Source: the human T2T-CHM13v2.0 reference genome, Homo sapiens. From it: a DNA stretch of 64,000 bases. The first letter of the stretch is position 1, and every line of letters starts with the position of its first letter. Positions 4,400 to 39,530 of this stretch are shown piece after piece. The notes below the pieces were generated by a model that was given only the letters and a program-made list of their open reading frames with translations, did not search any database and was not told the origin of the DNA. The position numbers and the translations under genes are program-made. Location: assembly GCF_009914755.1 (NCBI RefSeq), contig NC_060927.1. The stretch is one strand, 5' to 3'.

Positions 4400-6190
4400 A
4401 AGAAACTTTAACCCTCCTTTTATTAAAAGGCAAGGTCTGTTTATTTATCCCTTTGAATCTGAGCTGTCCTATGACTTCTTGAACCAGAAGAATAGGCCCA
4501 TACTGGGCATAGCTTCTTCAGCTTTTTATCACTCTTGGGGAGCTCTAAGATGCCGTGTATTAAATCTAATTATGCTGCTGGCAGCATCATGTGTGGAAGA
4601 CTCTAGAATGCATAGAGAGGAAGGTGTACAAATGGAAGCTTTCTTCTAGCCACCTTCACCAAGTCACGAGACCAAAAGGCTGTCAACTGAATACTGCCAA
4701 GTGACAGCATTGTTGCTACATTGAGCAGAGGAATCCACCAGCCAAGTCTTGTCTGAATCTCTGACTCCTACATTATTAAATATAATTATATTGTTGTTGT
4801 TTAAAGGCATCAAGTTTTGAGGTAGCTTGCTAGGCAGCAATAGATAGCCCTAACAGAATTTGGAAACCGATAGTGAAGTTCCACCATGATAAAAGCAAAA
4901 ATAGTTTTGGTTATGAAACTAGATAATGGTCGGAATCTGAAAAGATCTTAAGAAGAATTTTAGTGGATGCTGGAAGACTTTTAAGACAGTACATGGACAC
5001 CTCAATGGTAAAAAGAAAAACATTATTGGAGGCAAGAGAAAAATGGACACTCTGGATACTCGTTATCTAATTGCAGAAAGTTTGGCAACATTGTCCATGA
5101 CATAATGGAGAAACTAGCAAGGTACTTAATAAATTTGTCTGTCTGGTTGTTGAATCTTTGATACAAAGTATAAAAATTACTTTTTAAAAATTATGATAAA
5201 ATAAGAGATAGGTGCATTAAAGAAGAAAATAAGTTTTTAGTAGAATTTACAGGAAATATAAAAGCAGCCAGGATATCCTGTTAACACAAGCATGCGTGCA
5301 CACACACACACACACACATGCGCTCGTGCACATGCACTTCAAAACAAACAATACGTTTCTCAGTCCATTGTTCTTTTCAGCCATTTCAAGGGCTTTTAAG
5401 GAGCTAAAATGTATGTCTTTGTAGCCTTGCTCTTTTAAATTATAGTTTCTCTAAGAATCCTAAGGATTTTCTGTTCCAGCAGTCTCATATGCCACCTACC
5501 ATGACAAAAAGCATGTCTCAAAAAAACAGCATATGAATATGTCAAATGGAGTAAACGCTAGTGAAATTCATAGAAAACCCACAAAGTTTTTGATACAATG
5601 ATAAAAAATAAAAAGAGACTTTGGAGTCCCCCAAATACAATGAGAATGAAGAAGGTAGAAAAGCCTAGTGTCTTGCAAATCTAGGCCATTTCTTATGAAA
5701 AAGAAGGGATATCACAAAGGGTGGTGTCAAGAACACAAAGCAAGACAATATTCAAGGAGAACAATGGAATGTGGAGCGATAATCAGAACTTGAAAATAAT
5801 GCATCCAAATGAGAGAACTGAAATTGAGATGGGCAGAACCAGTCCAGACTGCAAGAACTGTAAACAATGAACTAAATAGAATAAGTGCATTTTAAGTTGC
5901 TGAGTTTCAGAGCAGTTTGCTATGAAGCAAAACTTTGCTGACACAACCATGTTAGATTACATCCTAACTATTACAGAAAAGTGGTACAAGAGAGTGAAGG
6001 AATGTCATAAAAATGACCTACATTCATAGCAGTTTTATAATACAGCAAGGGTAACAATAGAGGAGGTTTGAAAGGTAATGACACATGCAATTCTATGGCA
6101 AAACATCCGTTAAACTGTCACCTGAAATACTTCAGAAGGTAGACTGCCTACCAACACAGCCTATAATTTGGGCATAATTGGTTGCAAATT
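4400..6190 (+). mobile_element. MaLR MLT1 (G/H-like) LTR plus degraded MLT1 internal sequence
   Basis: 'ccctttgaatctgagctg..' LTR body ending '..agcaatagatagccctaaca', followed by an internal-type start 'gaatttggaaacc'; a second LTR-end motif at ~5880-5945. Confidence 0.6.
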
Positions 6191-6460
6191 TGATTTCTTT
6201 TAGCATGTGTGCATTTCAGTAATTATGCAAAGCATGTTCTGATAAAATCAGAAAGATCATCTATATACCTTTCGTTAAGGGGAAGGCCTTCAATGTTTCC
6301 ATTCTCTTTTCTTATTAAAAAAAAACCCATACCCCACATCTTGTTGGTAATGAAACATAATTATTTCTGCCTCAGTAAAAATAGAATAAAATTAACCTTC
6401 GCTGGAGGTAGGAAGTTATGTTTTGGCACTTATAAAGGTATTCTTGTTTAAAACAAGCTT

Positions 6461-8381: not shown

Positions 8382-10382
8382 CTCTATCAAAATTAATTTT
8401 TGTGGAAAGGCTAATGGCTTAAGGTTGAATATACAGCAAATCACATTTTCCCAGATTCTAATATTTCAGGCTTTTTTTTTTTTTTACAAAATATGATACT
8501 TAATAAAACTGTTATTTTTTTCTCATGAAATATTTCTCAAAGTTCCTTTCATTTCTACTTGTTATTGTTTCACAATATCGTTACACATTTTGTATTCCGG
8601 CTATAATCAAGACAAACTTTATTAAGATAGGTAGTGGTTGTTTCTAATAAATGAAATAGCCATCCTAAGGCACAGTATGGAAGATGAATATCACTTCAAA
8701 GTCTAGATACAGAGTAGAGACTTCTATTAAGTATGCACTCTCCAATTTTAGACTCACATTCTTTATCTGAGCTTTGCACTCCTTGGGAGACATATCAAAT
8801 TGTAATTATTGCCCTTTTGATATTTACTACAGCAAATAATTTATTTCCTATGATCCTTTTCATTTTACTTTCATAAATAAAACATTCTTTCACTTATTGT
8901 ATGTTTTATTGTTATTGAGACCAAATTCTAGGACTAGCATCAGAAATGTATTTCTTCAGTTGGCCATTTTATTGTTCCTTTTGCTACCATTTGTTGGAAA
9001 TAATTATGCATTACATGCTATGAATATTAGAAGCCATCACTTGTATAACTCGTGTCTGTTTTCTAAGTTGCGAATGACTGATTCTTCCCTAAATAATGCT
9101 TTTTTTTTTCAAGCACAACTATTTCCCATACATATGATGAAAAAGTCATGCTCTCAAAATATAACAAGTATAATATTAACTACCCTGGCTCTATGTTGTT
9201 TTTGAAACATTATACTTCAATCATTGAGGTTAATTATTGACTCTTTCTCAAGAAAACAAAATAAAAATGACAACTTAATGTGGCTAACAATGTAATAATT
9301 TAATAGAGATACTGACATCTAAATTGGGCTGTGTTTTATTCGTTCAATAGAAATTATAGTTTCAAGTATGGAAGAAAACGTCAATGAGATTATAAATTGT
9401 ATTTATCATATAAATTAATATAATAAAGAGTCCATTTTCAATTTATTATATAGGAAGAAATAGGAAAGGCTCTCATGCCATCATTGGTTTTACTTTTGGC
9501 TTGGCTAATGACAGCACTAAAGACACATTTCATTGTGTGTTTTTTTGTGCAGAACAGGAAAGTACACATACAGCATTCTGTGTTCTAGTTACTAGAACAC
9601 AGCCAGTTAGGTGACATTTGAAAACTGTTACTGCCAAAGCAAGTCAGTTTGCAAAATGTAATATCAAATTTTGAAACATTTGTATGAAATGACTTGTCAC
9701 ATGCTGAGTGTTTGCCATACACAACACAGAGATTTGCTTTACTTTTTTTTTAATCCTCAAAAGAGAATAGGAAAGAAAAGGTCCACTCTGCATTTTCCCC
9801 CCATTCCTATCTCTGCTTGAGTAAAACATAGTCTGTGGCTGTGGAAGAAACTCCCAGTCATATCATACAGACACTTGACAGGAGAAGCATTATATATTCA
9901 ATTAGCCAAAAATATATTAATGAGTGTGTGTGTATATATATATATATATATGTAAATACATACACACATACTGCATTCCTGCTAGATTGCTTCTCACTCG
10001 GTAACTCTACACAGGCTCTGGAGTATGTCCAGAGAAATTGTCTCCATCGTGTGTCTAAGCAGTTCATATTTCTCCCTAAATGATCTGAGAAATGTTTTTA
10101 ATTAAAATTAATTTTTCCAAATCAAAGGACACATTTCCTAAGAATGAACTGGTGCAGAAGTTTTTAACCACATGTAACCTGGAGCAATATTTACTAGAAT
10201 GTTTTCCCTAATTTTGCTTGCATACCTTTTTTTGTCATTGTAATTGCGCTAGCAAAAATACCAAGGAATAGGTCATACTACCTTAGTCCAGGCCAAAAAT
10301 AAGAAATGGGTTTTATGCATATCTTATGTACTTAATTACAAATAATAATAAAGCACAATAAAACAGAATATTATTAAATATA

Positions 10383-10468
10383 GAAAAGAAAGAAAAAAGG
10401 AGAGGGAAGACGGGAGGGAGGGAAGGAAGGAAAGAATGTATGAGGGAGGGATTGAAGGAAGGAAGCAA
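10383..10468 (+). repeat. Purine-rich (GA/GGAA) low-complexity tract
   Basis: 'gaaaagaaagaaaaaaggagagggaagacgggagggagggaaggaagg..'. Confidence 0.8.
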
Positions 10469-11296
10469 GCTACTTGGTACTTGGTTTTCCTATGAAACCA
10501 CCTAATTTACACAAAAGAAAGTATTTCTGCATGTCTTCCGCTTTCTGCCTGAGGAAGAAGAGGAGTGATAATGACCTCTGAGTCTAGAAACTCTCTGCCA
10601 GAGACTAGGAGGTAGTGAACATAGAGGAAGAGGATTTGCAGCCAGCATACAGTGAAATATTATATTAAAAAAATTATTACATAGGAATAACTTACCAACT
10701 CAGACAAATGCTGAGATTTAAAATCAAGAAAACTTAATAAAATTAAGTTCAAAGGATGCACTTCAGGAAGAAATATAATTATCCCAGAAGAAAAGTTAAA
10801 AGTATCATAAATGTATTGAAAAAACCTGGCATGGGTTGGAAGGTGAAAGAGAAAAAATAACTGATTTGTTAATTCACTTAGATTTTGATAAAAATTTTCA
10901 AATAATTTAAACACATGGAAGAAAGTAATTAGTTTTAAGAGTGTTACTATTTGGAAATATATCTACTTCAAATCAGACAAAACACGTAAAAAATAAAAGA
11001 TATTTTCAAATATTTATCTGTTCTCATCTTGAGGCTTGAAACCATGGTTAGAAAAGGGTTTTCTGGATGAGGGAAGCTGATATGTTGATTATTATGTTTG
11101 TCCTTATATGTCTAAACTTTTGCTTCATGACGTCTCTCCTAATACCACAAAAGCAACTCCTAAGTATCTGAATTCACCTCAGCTTGCTAATTTTCTATTA
11201 CAGATGACTTATTTTTTACACAAACTAGAAAGTATTTATGGCATTATTGGTGCAACACTATAGCCTTGAAGTAAAAAGTTCTAACCTTAGAAGTCA

Positions 11297-34116: not shown

Positions 34117-34453
<337 letters not shown>

Positions 34454-35121: not shown

Positions 35122-36483
35122 TGCTATGGGATCTTTGGGGTGTCAGTTTTCAAGCCAGAAACCTGTGGCTGGTGTTGCCTTTGCCCAAGTTTTGCTCAGG
35201 CCCACTGGGCTGATTGTGCCAACTTGGCCTGGCAGTCTGTGCTAAGCTCATGCTACCAGCCTGGGTCCCATGCCTCCAAGGGAGACTGGAGACAGGCATG
35301 GAGCAGCAAGGGGTGTGTGAGCTCCTGGCCACTGCACAGTCAAACACACCAGCTGTTGCCACAGGGCAGGCAGCTCCAGGTACTGGCATGGCCACCAGCT
35401 CTATGAGATGTTGCAGCTAGACCAGGCACACCACAAGCAGCTTCACCAGCTGGGAGCAAGGAATGCTGCAGTGCTTGGAAGCTTGGAGACACCAGGAACC
35501 ACAGGGCTCCAAAGAGGGAGTCACAGCCCTGGCTTGGGGAGCTCCCAGGTCTGAGACCCCTGAAGGGCCATAGCTCATCTATCCTTTCCTTTACCGGCAA
35601 CAGGGTGAGCAAGGAGCATGTTTAAGCCCTGTGTGTGTTACAGCAACTCTTTTAGCTTTGCCATTCAGCAGGTTCCAAGTTCTTCTCCTGCAACCAGGAA
35701 GAATGAGGTATGTAGACAAGTGGAGGGTGAGCAGATGGAGATGAACTTTATTGAGCAATAGAACAGCTCAGAGAATACCTACATTGGGCAGCTTTTCTCC
35801 ATAGCCAGGGTGTCCTTACAAGTGTTCAGCTCCTAGCAGAGAGGGTGGCTCCTCTCTGCAGGCAGGTCATCCCAACAAGTGTTCTTTTCTCAGGAGAGAG
35901 GGTAGCTCCTCTCTGCAACTGGTCATTCTGACAAGTGTTCAGCTATCATCAGAGAGGGTAGCTCCTCTCTGCAGCTTGTCATCACATTGTCTGCACCTCT
36001 TGGCAGACAGGAAGCCCTAGAGAGGATGGCTCCTCTCTGCAGGCAGGCCATCCCATTGTCTGCAGCTATTGGCAGAGAGGGCAGACCATCTCTGCAGATG
36101 GTTGTCCCATCGTGTCTCTCTCCTCTGCTCTGCTCTGCCTGAGCCCAGGACTTTTATGGGCTTCAGAGGGGAGGAAGTGTGTGCTGATTAGTCCACGGCA
36201 GCCATGGGTGGGTCTGGAAAAGGCAACACAAGTTCCCAAGTGGGACTGGCAGCCTGGCCCCCAGCCTTCAGGCTCTCCTGGCCTGAAGGTAGAGCCCCAG
36301 CAGGGACCCGACCCTTTCCACCCAGGAACCTGTGTGCCTCCTGTTGCTGCTCATGGTGACTGGGCTCAGTTCTAACTCTGCTCTGAGGTTGGGGCAGTCA
36401 CTGACAGCAGGGAGAAGCCATGCAGCAGAAGCAGGCACTTCTAAACCTGCAAGGGCAGGGGCGGCCTTCCCAAGCCCTAAAAG
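35122..36483 (-). mobile_element. MER52-like LTR, truncated at its right-hand end
   Basis: 'tgctatgggatctttggggtgtc..'; antisense poly(A) signal 'ctttattg' at ~35746; ~50-bp internal repeats 'caagtgttcagct..gctcctctctgca' at 35815-36110. Confidence 0.8.
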
Positions 36484-37398
36484 TATATAAGTATACACTG
36501 TAAGTCTACTTGAGATCCAAAGGATTTGCCTTTGTGGAGTTTGAAGCAAAAACAAAAGAAGCAAAATCTACTGAAGTAGTTCAGATCCTAAAAAGAAAAA
36601 AAATGCAAAAAATTTAACAAGTATTATAAATAGTAAAGCTTTTTTTGCAATCATTTCGGTTTTTTATCAACCCACCAGAAGCAGCACCAAAGAAAACTGG
36701 CATGTTCTCTAAGAGTGAAAACTAAACCTATTTTGCTCTTTAATAACTGTAGTTGAAGGAAACTGAAATTAATGATAGCATTGTTACAGAAGAAAAGGAA
36801 AGGAAAAATAAGAAGAAAGGCTGAATGACGGAAGACAATGGCCAGGCTAAAAAGTTAATATTGACACAGGCAATACAAGCATCTGCAAAAGGAAAAAATT
36901 GAGAACTACATCTGGAGGCTCTGAAATAGATACTACTAAACCTCAAAAGCAACCTTTAAAGGTAAAGAAAAATTGAGAAAAACCTGAAATATTCAGCTTT
37001 CCTGAAGTCAGAACAGGGAAAAAGAGAAATAGCTCTGAAAATGCAGAATTCCTGGCTTCCAAACCAAAAGCAAATAAAATGTCTCAAAACACACATTTTA
37101 AAATCTTTAAAAGTTTACAAAGAAAACAGAGGTATAGCAACTTTAAGATTATAATTAGATAAACAAGGTTATGTTTTACCCATTTCATAGCCACAAATGT
37201 CTTAACTGGGTTTTTAATTGCTCAAGATTTAGAAATCTCTACTGAAGAGGAAAAGGATACTGAAGATATAAAAGATGACGCTCTCTTTAAAATAAGGAAG
37301 CATTAAAAAAAACATAAAAAGAAATATAATATGGGAAAGGTTATCCATTAAGAGTACTATCAAAATAAGTATATGGTAAAAATTCTATTGCCATTGGC
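36484..37398 (+). pseudogene. LARP7: Decayed, intron-retaining fragment of LARP7 (four consecutive internal exons plus introns)
   Basis: Pieces translate to ..GFAFVEFE.. (RRM1), FFINPPEAAPKKTGMFSK, EEKERKNKKKG*M, PEVRTGK, DLEISTEEEKDTEDIKD and PLRVLS, colinear with recalled LARP7 (FLNNPPEEAPRKPGIFPK; DIEISTEEEKDTGDLKD; VIPLRVLSK). Introns at 36576-36659 and 37132-37226; stops and frameshifts present. Confidence 0.88.
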
Positions 37399-37449
37399 AA
37401 TTGATATTACACTCCATATAATTGTTATATTTTTGTTTCATGTTCCCAT

Positions 37450-39530
37450 TGTTTGTAATTTACATATAAAAACAAATGATTTTTGTAGATTGGAATTTTT
37501 TTGGTAAATTGATTAACTGTAGAATATTTTGTGGATTTTTTTCTATGTAAAAAGTCAGGTTTATAGAATTAAGTCATTTGTCTTCTTTTTGTTTAAACTC
37601 TATGCCTTTCGTTACTTTTTGTGTTCTTTTTTAATTATTATTATTTTTTGTAGGAATAAGGTCTCATTAGTTTGCCCAGACTGGTCTGCAACTCCTGCCT
37701 CAGGTGATCCTCCCACCTCAGCCTCCCACAGTGCTGGGATTAAAGAAGTGAGCCACTGCGCTCAATCTACTTATGTTATTCAACTGGCTTGGACTTCCAG
37801 TATGATGTGTAATGAATTGTGAAAGTGGACTTACATTCTCTTTGGAGAAATATGCTTAATATTTTCACTATTAAATATGTTGTTAGATGAAGATTTTTCA
37901 TAAATGTTCTTTATAAATTAGAAGCCCCATTCTATTTATAATTCATTGAGTTTTTTCTTAAACAAGTTTATAGATTGTCAATTGTTCTTTTTGCATTGAT
38001 TGAAATAGTCTTATGACTAAAGAGACCACTTTTTAAAATTTTTGATGTCATTGTGTGAGTTAGAATAATGGATTTTTAAATATTAAACCAACTGTGTAAT
38101 ACTGGCATAAATCTAATTTTTCACTGGTATTTTCCTTTTTATATTTTGGTGAATTTGATTTTCTAAAATTTTGTTTTGTTTTATTTATAAAACATTTGAC
38201 TTTGTAATTTCATTTTAAAATTCTTGTGAGATTTTTGGATCAGGGTCTTCCTGGCCTCACAAAAGCAATTGGATATTTTTTTCTGTGTTGTTTTCTAAAA
38301 GAGTTTTGTTTGTTTAATATCAGTATTTCTTTTTTAAACATTTGATAGACTTCATCAGTGAAGCCATCTAGGCCAAGAGATTTTTGTGGAAGGGTTTTCC
38401 TTTAGGATTTTATTTTTTTAGTAGATATGGGGTATTCAGGTTGTCTTTATTCTTGGGTCAGTTTTTGCAATTTGTGTTACCTAAAGAACTTGTCCATTTC
38501 ATCTATTGCGTCTAATGGCATAAAATTATTCATAATATTCACTTACCTTTTTAGTGTCTGTAAGATCTTTGTACTATTTTATTTCATTCCTATTATTGTT
38601 AATTGATAATTCACCTATTTTTCATTTTCAGTCTTGCCATGCATGCATAAAATATCTTAATATTTTCAAAAAAACTCATTTTTTTCTTCATTGATTTTCG
38701 TTGTTTTTACATTTTCTAGTTCAGTGATTTCTGATCTTTTCTTTATTGTCTTTTCTCGTACTTATTTAAGTTTATTACTCTTACTTTTCTATCTTCTTGA
38801 TATGAAAACTTAGATTATTAAGTTTAACATGCTTTAATTTTCTAATGTAAGCCTTTAACACTATGAGTATCTAAGCACAATCAATATGTTGTATTATTAA
38901 TGTTTGTTTCAAAATTTTCTAAATTTCTCGTTCTTTTTAGTGTAATTTTTTAAATATCTTGCTTGATTTCAAATATTTAGGGCAATATTTAACTTTATGA
39001 TAGTCACAAATATATTCTGTATAGTGTTACTCCTTAAAATGTCTTGAGAATTGTGTTTTTTCTCTTAAGGATATTGTCTATTCATGTACACTCAAAAGAA
39101 TTTGTTTTCTATACTTGTTGGATTGGGTGCTTTGAAATGTCTACTAAGCCTAGTTGTCTTAAGTAAGGTACTAAAAGAAGTTGTTAAAGTTTCCAATTAT
39201 GAGGGTAGGTCTATATATATCTCCCATTATTTTGATTAATTTTTGAGTCATATGCTTTGAAGTTCTACTGTTAAATTTGTTTCTGTATTTGATGAATTGA
39301 CTCTTTTATCATTATGAAATGTTTCTCTTTATCTATGGTACTACTCTATTTATGTCTGTTTTGTATGATATTAATGTAGTTATTGCAGCTTTGTTATGAT
39401 TAATATTTGCATTTATATATGTGTATATATATACATACATATATAAAATATATATATATAGTTCTTCTCTTCTAAATAGCATATGGTTAGTTCGTGCTTT
39501 TTTATTGCGATATTTTACTTTTAATTAGAG
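37450..39530 (-). mobile_element. Ancient L1M ORF2 fragments
   Basis: T-rich antisense L1 motifs: 'ggacttccagtatgatg', 'cagtgaagccatctaggcc', 'gactcttttatcattatgaaatg'. Confidence 0.75.
37643..37765 (-). mobile_element. FLAM/Alu monomer
   Basis: 'aggtctc..gcccagactggtc..gatcctcccacctcagcctccc..gtgagccactgcgc'. Confidence 0.85.

What the first reader, a model, noticed from the sequence alone, without database searches (positions are those of the whole stretch)
37227..37460. LARP7 similarity appears to stop just inside the miR-302/367 host intron: possible retrocopy of the antisense pri-miR-302 transcript
Seen: after the exon ending PLRVLS(K), only ~35 nt look like an intron start (ataagtatatggtaaaaattct..cattggc) before unrelated T-rich/L1 sequence begins. 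I see no miR-367 (aattgcacttt or its complement) or miR-302 (taagtgcttcc or its complement) sequence nearby. Known: the pluripotency miR-302/367 cluster lies antisense in LARP7 intron 8. As I recall, miR-367 is nearest the upstream exon and the host transcript (MIR302CHG) reads antisense across the upstream LARP7 exons. Inference: a polyadenylated antisense host RNA, either its 3' exon or the 3' product left by Drosha cleavage, would carry LARP7 exons plus introns and begin next to miR-367, which is the structure seen here. It would also be abundant in early embryonic cells, where L1 retrotransposition is heritable. The predicted poly(A) (poly-T on + strand, to the left) is absent, but that end seems to have been deleted together with the MER52 end.
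Basis: inference. Interest (0 to 1): 0.78.

Follow-up and report, generated by a model that had tools for sequence, protein, structure and literature searches.

The report
Retrocopy of Drosha-cut miR-302/367 host RNA
The chr3 "LARP7 pseudogene 4" appears to be an old reverse-transcribed copy of the antisense miR-302/367 host RNA that starts where Drosha cuts off the last microRNA hairpin, and two other human copies start at the same place.

Summary
Window 36484-37404 is colinear, introns included, with about 1 kb of the LARP7 locus on chr4 (about 77% identity). Homology stops 42 nt into the intron that holds miR-302/367, and no miRNA hairpin is present.

The stop point aligns with the nucleotide right after mature miR-367-3p, where the 3' product of Drosha cleavage begins. 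For this old copy the placement is good to about 5 nt.

Two more human copies share this end.
- **chr7 (2.2% diverged):** it starts exactly at that nucleotide. It has a perfect 17-nt target-site duplication, and an AATAAA signal and A-tail in the antisense orientation.
- **chr12 (old):** it ends at the same nucleotide as chr3 but has unrelated flanks. It keeps a T-run next to the host gene's polyadenylation-signal region.

A chr6 copy, published as T2S5, shows the normal spliced host RNA and so defines the last exon (E3).

LARP7P4 is therefore best read as an L1-type retrocopy of the unspliced, polyadenylated 3' remnant of the host RNA (MIR302CHG) left after Drosha cropping. Its poly(A) end was lost in a deletion that also cut the neighbouring repeat.

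Spliced MIR302CHG retrocopies are in print (Pan & Lin 2020). I did not find this Drosha-remnant class there or in four other literature searches. I rate it a new variant of a known kind, with no present function expected.

The parts
36484..37404 (-). Body of the retrocopy (NCBI: LARP7P4). The RNA sense is on the minus strand. It is colinear with chr4 parent 9200-10216 (C4:115955200-115956216), introns included.
   Evidence: one colinear BLAST match, 72% over 1018 columns; 607 of 789 ungapped columns identical (76.9%).
37398..37404 (-). 5' end of the copied RNA. It aligns with parent 10216, the first nucleotide after mature miR-367-3p and so the start of the Drosha 3' product.
   Evidence: Searches place the miR-367 3' end at parent 10217. 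Searches give the alignments; chr3 and chr12 share 34 of 40 nt to the left of this point and 14 of 40 to the right.
36588..37404 (-). Part derived from the host-gene intron, from the Drosha cut down to the E3 acceptor. It is left unspliced.
   Evidence: The acceptor (T-tract plus AG on the antisense strand, parent 9310-9309) is defined by the spliced chr6 copy. It maps to window 36588-36589.
36484..36587 (-). Part derived from host-gene exon E3. It is truncated: parent 9066-9199, the poly(A) signal, the tail and the TSD are missing.
   Evidence: The only significant window match to parent 9000-9330 is 36484-36602.
37227..37364 (+). Stretch homologous to the LARP7 exon ending …PLRVLS(K), the exon that precedes the miR-302/367 intron (parent 10030-10174).
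36790..37131 (+). Stretch homologous to the large lysine-rich LARP7 exon (parent 9539-9889).
36660..36738 (+). Stretch homologous to the LARP7 exon at parent 9374-9467. Its 3' part is deleted in the copy.
36484..36575 (+). Stretch homologous to the 3' part of the LARP7 RRM exon (parent 9200-9295). The same DNA is E3 on the other strand.
36110..36483 (.). It is truncated at the junction with the retrocopy.
   Evidence: 1261 first-look candidates, 40 scored; 11 of 11 other copies keep sharing homology for about 100 nt past the point where this copy stops.
37405..37640 (.). Right flank, unrelated to LARP7 and to the chr12 flank. It is single-copy at the search's sensitivity.
   Evidence: 1 match, itself; local score of the 300-nt flanks is 21 against shuffles of 20.8 +/- 2.7.

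Best explanation
LARP7P4 is a dead, ancient L1-type retrocopy of an RNA from the opposite strand of LARP7, not of LARP7 itself. The template was the 3' remnant of the primary miR-302/367 transcript (host gene MIR302CHG).

The proposed sequence of events is inferred. The sequence relations behind it are shown.
1. The host gene is transcribed in early embryonic or germ-line cells.
2. The Microprocessor (Drosha/DGCR8) crops the five hairpins.
3. The piece downstream of the last hairpin (miR-367) has lost its 5' splice donor. It keeps the rest of the intron plus exon E3 and is polyadenylated at the E3 signal.
4. L1 reverse transcriptase primes on that tail and runs to the physical 5' end of the RNA, which is the Drosha cut.
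5. The cDNA integrates.

Because the remnant overlaps four LARP7 exons and three short introns in antisense, the copy looks like an intron-containing LARP7 fragment.

On chr3 a later deletion removed the poly(A) end, the target-site duplication and part of the neighbouring repeat.

No present-day function is expected.
For: **Host gene structure**
- Rfam places mir-367 at parent 10214-10281 (minus strand) and four mir-302 hairpins upstream of it in the transcript.
- The published mature miR-367 (Table 1 of PMC9209417) ends at parent 10217, so the Drosha 3' product starts at 10216.
- The chr6 copy (the published T2S5) joins exon E1 to parent 9308 across the whole cluster. This defines E3 and its acceptor.

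**chr7 copy**
- It starts at parent 10216 with no alignment slack.
- It has a 17-nt perfect TSD, AATAAA and an A-run, all in the antisense orientation.
- It has 8 mismatches in 360 aligned nt.

**chr3 and chr12 copies**
- They share 34 of 40 nt up to the same last nucleotide. After it they share 14 of 40 nt, and the 300-nt flanks score no better than shuffled sequence.
- chr12 keeps a T8 run next to the E3 poly(A)-signal region: score 58.5 against 36.3 +/- 4.8, with 0 of 300 shuffles as high.

**No copy holds a hairpin**
- Outside the parent, no genome match covers parent 10217-10900. There were 4 matches: the parent and the three copies, ending at query 216, 205 and 205.

**chr3 and chr12 look like separate events**
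- The differences they share against the parent sit where the parent is free to change.
- Substitutions, shared to copy-specific: 40:120 in exon columns and 37:36 in intron columns (Fisher p = 1.6e-4).
- Indels, shared to copy-specific: 1:15 in exon columns and 8:7 in intron columns.

**The cut lies inside the helix**
- In the predicted pri-miR-367 fold the cut is about 16-20 nt above the base of the helix.
- A stall of reverse transcriptase at the hairpin base would therefore end short of 10216.
Against: - The chr3 copy itself has no poly(A) or poly-T, no TSD and no L1 endonuclease site left. Its retro-origin rests on its sister copies and on its boundaries.
- For chr3 and chr12 the last 12 nt differ from today's parent by two substitutions and a 5-nt gap, shared by both copies. 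Rfam's mir-367 consensus shows the UGG after the cut as conserved. So their 5' end is placed only to within about 5 nt, and a common source other than today's parent sequence is not excluded.
- In intron columns the shared class (37) outnumbers each copy-specific class (22 and 14). Some shared history of the two copies therefore cannot be ruled out.
- No TSD could be found for chr12: no shared word of 8 nt or more.
- The chr7 copy has an unexplained internal 791-nt gap that is not a splice.
- No RNA data and no orthologous loci were available, so the Drosha product as template is inferred from coordinates alone.
Confidence: 0.8

Rival explanations
1. It is a retrocopy of an unspliced or intron-retaining MIR302CHG RNA that still carried the hairpins. 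Its cDNA was 5'-truncated by chance, or by a stall of L1 reverse transcriptase at the stable pri-miR-367 hairpin, without Drosha cleavage.
For: 5' truncation is common in L1-mediated copies (general knowledge). The hairpin is very stable, -45.1 kcal/mol with z = -5.6. For the two old copies the end is placed only to within about 5 nt.
Against: The chr7 copy starts exactly one nucleotide after mature miR-367-3p. That point is inside the helix, 16-20 nt above its base, so the enzyme would already have read the 3' strand of the lower stem. Three insertion sites share the end. By my own estimate, not a tool result, the chance of coincidence on a roughly 2-kb unspliced transcript is about 5e-4 for an exact hit times about 3e-3 for each further copy within 5 nt.
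Confidence: 0.08
2. It is a retrocopy of a separate capped antisense transcript whose transcription start happens to lie just downstream of miR-367.
For: A fixed RNA 5' end is all that the shared boundary strictly demands.
Against: The start would have to coincide to the nucleotide with the end of mature miR-367-3p. No extra 5' G beyond the TSD, as sometimes seen at capped ends, is visible in the chr7 copy. Pan & Lin place the host gene's start in E1, upstream of the cluster (passages).
Confidence: 0.05
3. It is an unprocessed pseudogene: a DNA-level duplication of about 1 kb of LARP7, as the name LARP7P4 and the retained introns suggest.
For: Introns are retained and the copy is colinear with genomic DNA. 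The chr3 copy has no poly(A) or TSD.
Against: Three copies on three chromosomes share one boundary that is an RNA-processing site, with unrelated flanks. The other boundary, where preserved, is the antisense poly(A) site with an A-tail (chr7) or a T-run (chr12). chr7 has a 17-nt TSD.
Confidence: 0.03
4. It is a retrocopy of a LARP7 sense pre-mRNA that kept its introns and was prematurely polyadenylated in the miR-302 intron.
For: The orientation NCBI gives is LARP7 sense, and the LARP7 exons are recognisable.
Against: There is no A-run after the right-hand end in chr3 or chr12. In chr7 the AATAAA and A-tail are on the antisense strand, and the end that would be the sense 3' end abuts the TSD directly with no A/T run. 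The copies begin inside an exon, or at the antisense poly(A) site, rather than at a LARP7 start.
Confidence: 0.01

Closest known systems
MIR302CHG retrocopies, types T1 (E1-E302-E3) and T2 (E1-E3), of Pan & Lin 2020, Sci Rep 10:20612 (PMC7692494). I read the abstract, passages, sections 6, 7 and 17, and Table S2.
   Same: Same parental gene. Same last exon E3 and poly(A) site. L1-type insertion. Origin attributed to cells with high L1 activity. Their two human entries, T1S1 in IQCK on chr16 and T2S5 on chr6, turned up in my search too.
   Different: Those copies come from spliced RNA, begin in E1 and lack the intron. The chr3, chr12 and chr7 copies have no E1, keep the intron from the Drosha cut to E3, and start at the Drosha cut. 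Table S2 lists no human chr3, chr7 or chr12 entry, and 'LARP7' occurs 0 times in the main text. Their PDF figures and alignment files could not be read.
[quoted passage not shown]
   Same: The authors suggest that the 5' ends of the mir-373 template RNAs were made by Drosha cleavage (passage from section 13).
   Different: Those copies are the hairpin itself with a poly(A) tract attached directly to its end. Here the hairpin is absent and the copy is the downstream remnant with a normal poly(A) site.
Ordinary processed pseudogenes of capped, spliced mRNAs
   Same: Poly(A) tail, TSD and colinearity with an RNA, as seen in the chr7 sister copy.
   Different: The template is non-coding and unspliced. 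If the reading is right, it was an uncapped cleavage product with a 5' monophosphate (inferred).
Unprocessed (duplicated) pseudogene, the class implied by 'LARP7 pseudogene 4' with introns
   Same: It contains LARP7 exons and introns in genomic order.
   Different: Its limits are those of an antisense RNA, not of a DNA segment. Sister copies carry retrotransposition hallmarks.

Membership tests
L1-mediated retrocopy (processed pseudogene in the wide sense) | Poly(A) tail at the 3' end of the copied RNA | tested here: not met
   chr3 has no T-run at the left end; the copy stops 134 nt short of the poly(A) site. It is met in the chr7 sister (A-run after AATAAA) and probably in chr12 (T8 run). 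The loss on chr3 is explained by a deletion.
L1-mediated retrocopy (processed pseudogene in the wide sense) | Target-site duplication flanking the insert | not testable with these tools
   The left end of the chr3 copy is deleted. The chr7 sister has a 17-nt perfect TSD. For chr12 no shared word of 8 nt or more was found.
L1-mediated retrocopy (processed pseudogene in the wide sense) | The insert's limits coincide with the ends of an RNA, not of a DNA segment | tested here: met
   The right end is the Drosha 3' cut, within 5 nt. The same end occurs in 3 of 3 intron-containing copies.
MIR302CHG retrocopies T1/T2 (Pan & Lin 2020) | Derived from MIR302CHG and contains exon E3 | tested here: met
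   Window 36484-36587 corresponds to parent 9200-9308, inside E3 as defined by the chr6 copy.
MIR302CHG retrocopies T1/T2 (Pan & Lin 2020) | Exon E1 joined to E302 or E3 with the miRNA intron removed | tested here: not met
   There is no E1 homology, and the intron from parent 9311 to 10216 is retained. It is therefore a third, undescribed type and not T1 or T2.
LARP7 processed pseudogene (from LARP7 mRNA) | Intronless LARP7 cDNA with a sense-strand poly(A) | tested here: not met
   Three LARP7 introns are retained. There is no A-run at the sense 3' end.
Unprocessed LARP7 pseudogene (DNA duplication) | Homology continues into flanking genomic DNA without regard to transcript limits | tested here: not met
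   Homology stops at the Drosha cut in three copies. Where the left limit is preserved it is the antisense poly(A) site.
miRNA gene copy (mir-367 / mir-302) | Presence of the hairpin | tested here: not met
   no hit in or near the copy.

The most novel reading that the evidence does not exclude
The polyadenylated 3' remnants that the Microprocessor leaves after cropping a pri-miRNA are uncapped and unspliced, and are usually thought to be degraded quickly. They may nevertheless be recurrent templates for L1 retrotransposition in the mammalian germ line or early embryo. For MIR302CHG this seems to have happened at least twice, and probably three times, over roughly 100 million years. It accounts for 3 of the 6 host-gene-derived copies I found in the human genome. 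If general, 'Drosha-end retrocopies' would be genomic fossils that record ancient Drosha cut sites and the survival of cleavage products. Some intron-containing 'unprocessed pseudogenes' would then be re-assigned to antisense or intronic miRNA host transcripts.
Probability: 0.4. Interest if true: 0.75.

Novelty: new variant of a known kind. Interest (0 to 1): 0.6.

Why it matters
- **Annotation.** It corrects a record: LARP7P4 would descend from the miR-302/367 host gene on the opposite strand, not from LARP7. The unlisted chr12 and chr7 copies would have the same origin.
- **RNA biology.** It is natural evidence that the 3' product of Drosha cleavage of an intronic miRNA cluster can escape both splicing and 5'-3' decay, be polyadenylated, and reach the L1 machinery in cells that contribute to the germ line.
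- **L1 substrates.** It would show that an RNA without a cap can be copied to its very 5' end.
- **A searchable signature.** A retrocopy 5' end at the nucleotide after the last mature 3p miRNA of a host transcript can be looked for across genomes.

The element itself is a decayed fossil with no expected function.

Tried and rejected
- **Splicing as the cause of the 791-nt gap in the chr7 copy.** The gap (parent 9183-9973) has no GT-AG or other known splice-site pair on either strand and no microhomology. I read it as a deletion during or after insertion.
- **Missing 3' end elsewhere in the window.** I looked for it on the far side of the neighbouring repeat, as expected if the repeat had simply inserted into the copy. 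The only significant match to parent 9000-9330 is 36484-36602; the next best has E = 0.008 and is an A/T-rich chance hit.
- **Right flank as a continuation of the repeat or an L1.** Window 37405-37640 matches only itself.
- **TSD for the chr12 copy.** No shared word of 8-12 nt between its right flank and the 860 nt to its left. By eye there is a weak 10-of-22 resemblance, which I do not claim.
- **chr3 and chr12 as DNA duplicates of each other.** Rejected because flank homology is absent and shared differences sit in intron columns. The shared changes in the first 12 nt remain unexplained.
- **chr8 match as a LARP7 mRNA pseudogene.** Rejected. It spans the whole of E3, including intron-side bases of LARP7, in the host-gene orientation.
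- **Sources not available.** The paper on the host gene's structure, Barroso-delJesus 2008, was not held. I know its content only through Pan & Lin's text.
- **Literature searches for this class.** Searches found only Pan & Lin 2020.
Full report
**What is in the window**

Window 36484-37404 gives one colinear match to chr4, C4:115955200-115956205, at 72% identity over 1018 columns. Below I use 'parent' coordinates, where 1 = C4:115946001.

Reading the parent shows four LARP7 exons at 9131-9295, 9374-9467, 9539-9889 and 10030-10174. They are separated by introns of 78, 71 and 140 nt. The chr3 copy carries the exons and the introns in order.

The last exon (…PLRVLS) ends at window 37364. A further 40 nt, to 37404, match the next intron. 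The flagged observation is therefore real.

**Where the homology stops**

Rfam finds mir-367 at parent 10214-10281 and four mir-302 hairpins at 10344-10892. All are on the strand opposite to LARP7, and mir-367 is the one nearest the exon.

The mature miR-367 printed in Table 1 of PMC9209417 (passage) occupies parent 10238-10217 on that strand. Its 3' end marks the Drosha cut on the 3' arm, so the downstream cleavage product begins at 10216.

In the predicted fold of the region (-45.1 kcal/mol, z = -5.6) this point lies inside the helix, 16-20 nt above its base.

BLAST loses the chr3 copy at parent 10205. Multiple alignments place its last base opposite 10216, with two substitutions and a 5-nt gap in the final 12 nt. 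For this old copy the end is therefore fixed to within about 5 nt.

No miR-367 or miR-302 sequence is present near the copy.

**Other copies in the genome**

Searches with the chr3 copy and with the parent found five further places.

- **chr7** (L009 4997-5369; its plus strand is the antisense of LARP7).
  - It starts at parent 10216 exactly.
  - It is flanked by a perfect 17-nt direct repeat.
  - It ends with the parent's AATAAA, about 15 nt of sequence and an A-run.
  - It differs from the parent at 8 of 360 aligned positions, so it is recent.
  - It lacks parent 9183-9973. The junction has no splice-site dinucleotides on either strand and no microhomology, so I take it as a deletion.
- **chr12** (L008 about 5038-6261, interrupted by an Alu).
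  - It is as old as the chr3 copy.
  - Its right end is the same nucleotide as in chr3. The two share 34 of the last 40 nt. After it they share 14 of 40 nt, and their 300-nt flanks align no better than shuffled sequence, 21 against 20.8 +/- 2.7.
  - At its left end a T8 run is followed by a match to the E3 poly(A)-signal region, parent 9057-9125. The score is 58.5 against 36.3 +/- 4.8, and 0 of 300 shuffles reach it.
  - About 190 nt in between are missing.
- **chr6** (96% identity). It joins parent 11037-10969 to 9310-9062. On the antisense strand the join falls after a T-tract and AG at 9310-9309. It is therefore a copy of the spliced host RNA with the whole miRNA intron removed, ending in an A-run.
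- **chr16.** It starts at the same acceptor and carries an Alu.
- **chr8.** A 69%-identical match covers the whole of E3 in the host-gene orientation.

Outside the parent, nothing in the genome covers the hairpins. One search gave 4 matches: the parent and the three copies, ending at query 216, 205 and 205.

**What is already in print**

Pan & Lin (2020, PMC7692494) describe L1-mediated retrocopies of MIR302CHG made from spliced RNA, either E1-E302-E3 or E1-E3. I read the abstract, passages, sections 6, 7 and 17, and Table S2.

- Their two human entries are T1S1 in IQCK on chr16, with an AluSx1 interruption, and T2S5 on chr6 between CNKSR3 and SCAF8, 319 nt long. These correspond to my chr16 and chr6 copies.
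- They note that the long-form E1 donor (SS2) is mutated in the present human gene. The parent indeed has TT where the chr6 copy implies a donor.
- Their table has no human chr3, chr7 or chr12 entry, and the word LARP7 does not occur in the main text.
- They do suggest Drosha-made 5' ends for mir-373 retrocopies. Those are hairpins with a tail attached, which is a different thing.
- Their PDF figures and alignment files could not be read here.
- Searches found no other paper on such copies.
- The original description of the host gene, Barroso-delJesus 2008, was not held.

**Interpretation**

The three intron-containing copies are bounded on one side by the Drosha cut after the last hairpin. 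Where that side is preserved, the other boundary is the poly(A) site of the host gene's last exon. Tail and TSD are in the antisense orientation.

The simplest template is the 3' remnant of the primary transcript after cropping: about 1150 nt made of the rest of the intron plus E3, polyadenylated. It is unspliced because its donor was cut away. That only the piece after the last hairpin appears as copies fits the idea, since it is the only piece that carries the tail.

These are the steps that are shown:
- the coordinates;
- the shared boundary;
- the hallmarks in chr7;
- the T-run and poly(A)-signal region in chr12;
- the spliced reference structure.

These steps are inferred:
- Drosha made the end;
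- the RNA was uncapped;
- L1 did the copying;
- the events took place in early embryonic or germ cells.

**The left end on chr3**

The copy begins at parent 9200, inside E3, and lacks 134 nt plus the tail. It abuts a GC-rich repeat with more than 1261 first-look candidates in the genome.

That repeat is itself cut at the junction. 11 of 11 other copies go on sharing homology with one another for about 100 nt beyond it. The missing E3 part is nowhere in the 64-kb window. The right flank is not the rest of the repeat.

The family name MER52 could not be checked.

**Are the two old copies independent?**

Pairwise identities are alike:
- parent-chr3: 607/789;
- parent-chr12: 644/819;
- chr3-chr12: 605/777.

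Differences shared by both copies against the parent are concentrated in LARP7-intron columns.
- Substitutions, shared to copy-specific: 40:120 in exon columns and 37:36 in intron columns, Fisher p = 1.6e-4.
- Indels: 1:15 in exon columns and 8:7 in intron columns. The single 'shared' exon case is an overlap of two different deletions.

This is what changes in the parent lineage would give, because the parent's exons are constrained. It argues against a long common history of the two copies.

Against this, in intron columns the shared class (37) exceeds each copy-specific class (22 and 14). The two copies also share two substitutions and a 5-nt gap in their first 12 nt, at a place where Rfam's consensus shows UGG as conserved. 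I cannot resolve this without other mammals.

I therefore count at least two events, ancient and recent, and probably three.

**Age** (rough inference)

The E3 part of the chr3 copy is 83% identical to the parent. [quoted passage not shown] The chr7 copy, at 2.2% divergence, should be confined to apes or a subset of them.

**Rivals**

- **Chance truncation or a reverse-transcriptase stall at the hairpin.** This is disfavoured by the exact hit in chr7 inside the helix and by its recurrence.
- **A capped start at this nucleotide.** It would be an unlikely coincidence with the miRNA's end.
- **DNA duplication, or a LARP7 sense pre-mRNA as template.** Both are contradicted by the antisense tail and TSD and by the RNA-defined boundaries.

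**Verdict**

The element is a decayed fossil without expected function. Its origin from a Microprocessor cleavage product, repeated at three sites, is a variant of retrocopy formation that I did not find described.

Noticed in passing
L016 1488-1741 (C8:130325046-130325299): A very old match (69% identity) to the whole of host-gene exon E3, in host-gene orientation. Just upstream there is a weak hint of E1 (E = 0.067). It may be a further MIR302CHG retrocopy that is not in Pan & Lin's Table S2.
   Followed up: partly
L009 5239/5240 (chr7 copy): A blunt internal 791-nt gap (parent 9183-9973) with no splice signals and no microhomology. Its cause is unknown: a template jump during reverse transcription or a later deletion.
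   Followed up: partly
L007 166 (parent 10166; C4:115956166): All three copies, including the young chr7 one, have A where the parent has G, in a valine codon of LARP7 (GTG against GTA). This suggests a recent synonymous change in the parent lineage.
   Followed up: no
L007 about 968-969 (parent antisense, end of long-form E1): The donor implied by the chr6 copy reads TT in today's human gene. This agrees with Pan & Lin's statement that splice site SS2 is mutated in humans.
   Followed up: yes
window 35808-36113: The repeat to the left of the copy holds 4-5 tandem units of about 56 nt, each with an internal palindrome-like core.
   Followed up: no
window 34171-34452 and about 37655-37770: Alu-type sequence. 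There are weak SRP-RNA and mir-1268 model hits below gathering score at 34171-34452. An Alu-like fragment lies in the right flank (also weak matches to the parent's Alus).
   Followed up: no
L008 5802-6053 (chr12 copy): An Alu in reverse orientation, truncated at one end, interrupts the chr12 copy between parent 9995 and 10010. It has a short duplication of about 7 nt.
   Followed up: partly
window 37393-37404; L008 6250-6261: The first 12 nt of both old copies share two substitutions and a 5-nt gap against the human parent, in the lower stem of pri-miR-367. Rfam's consensus shows the three bases after the cut as conserved. Unexplained.
   Followed up: partly
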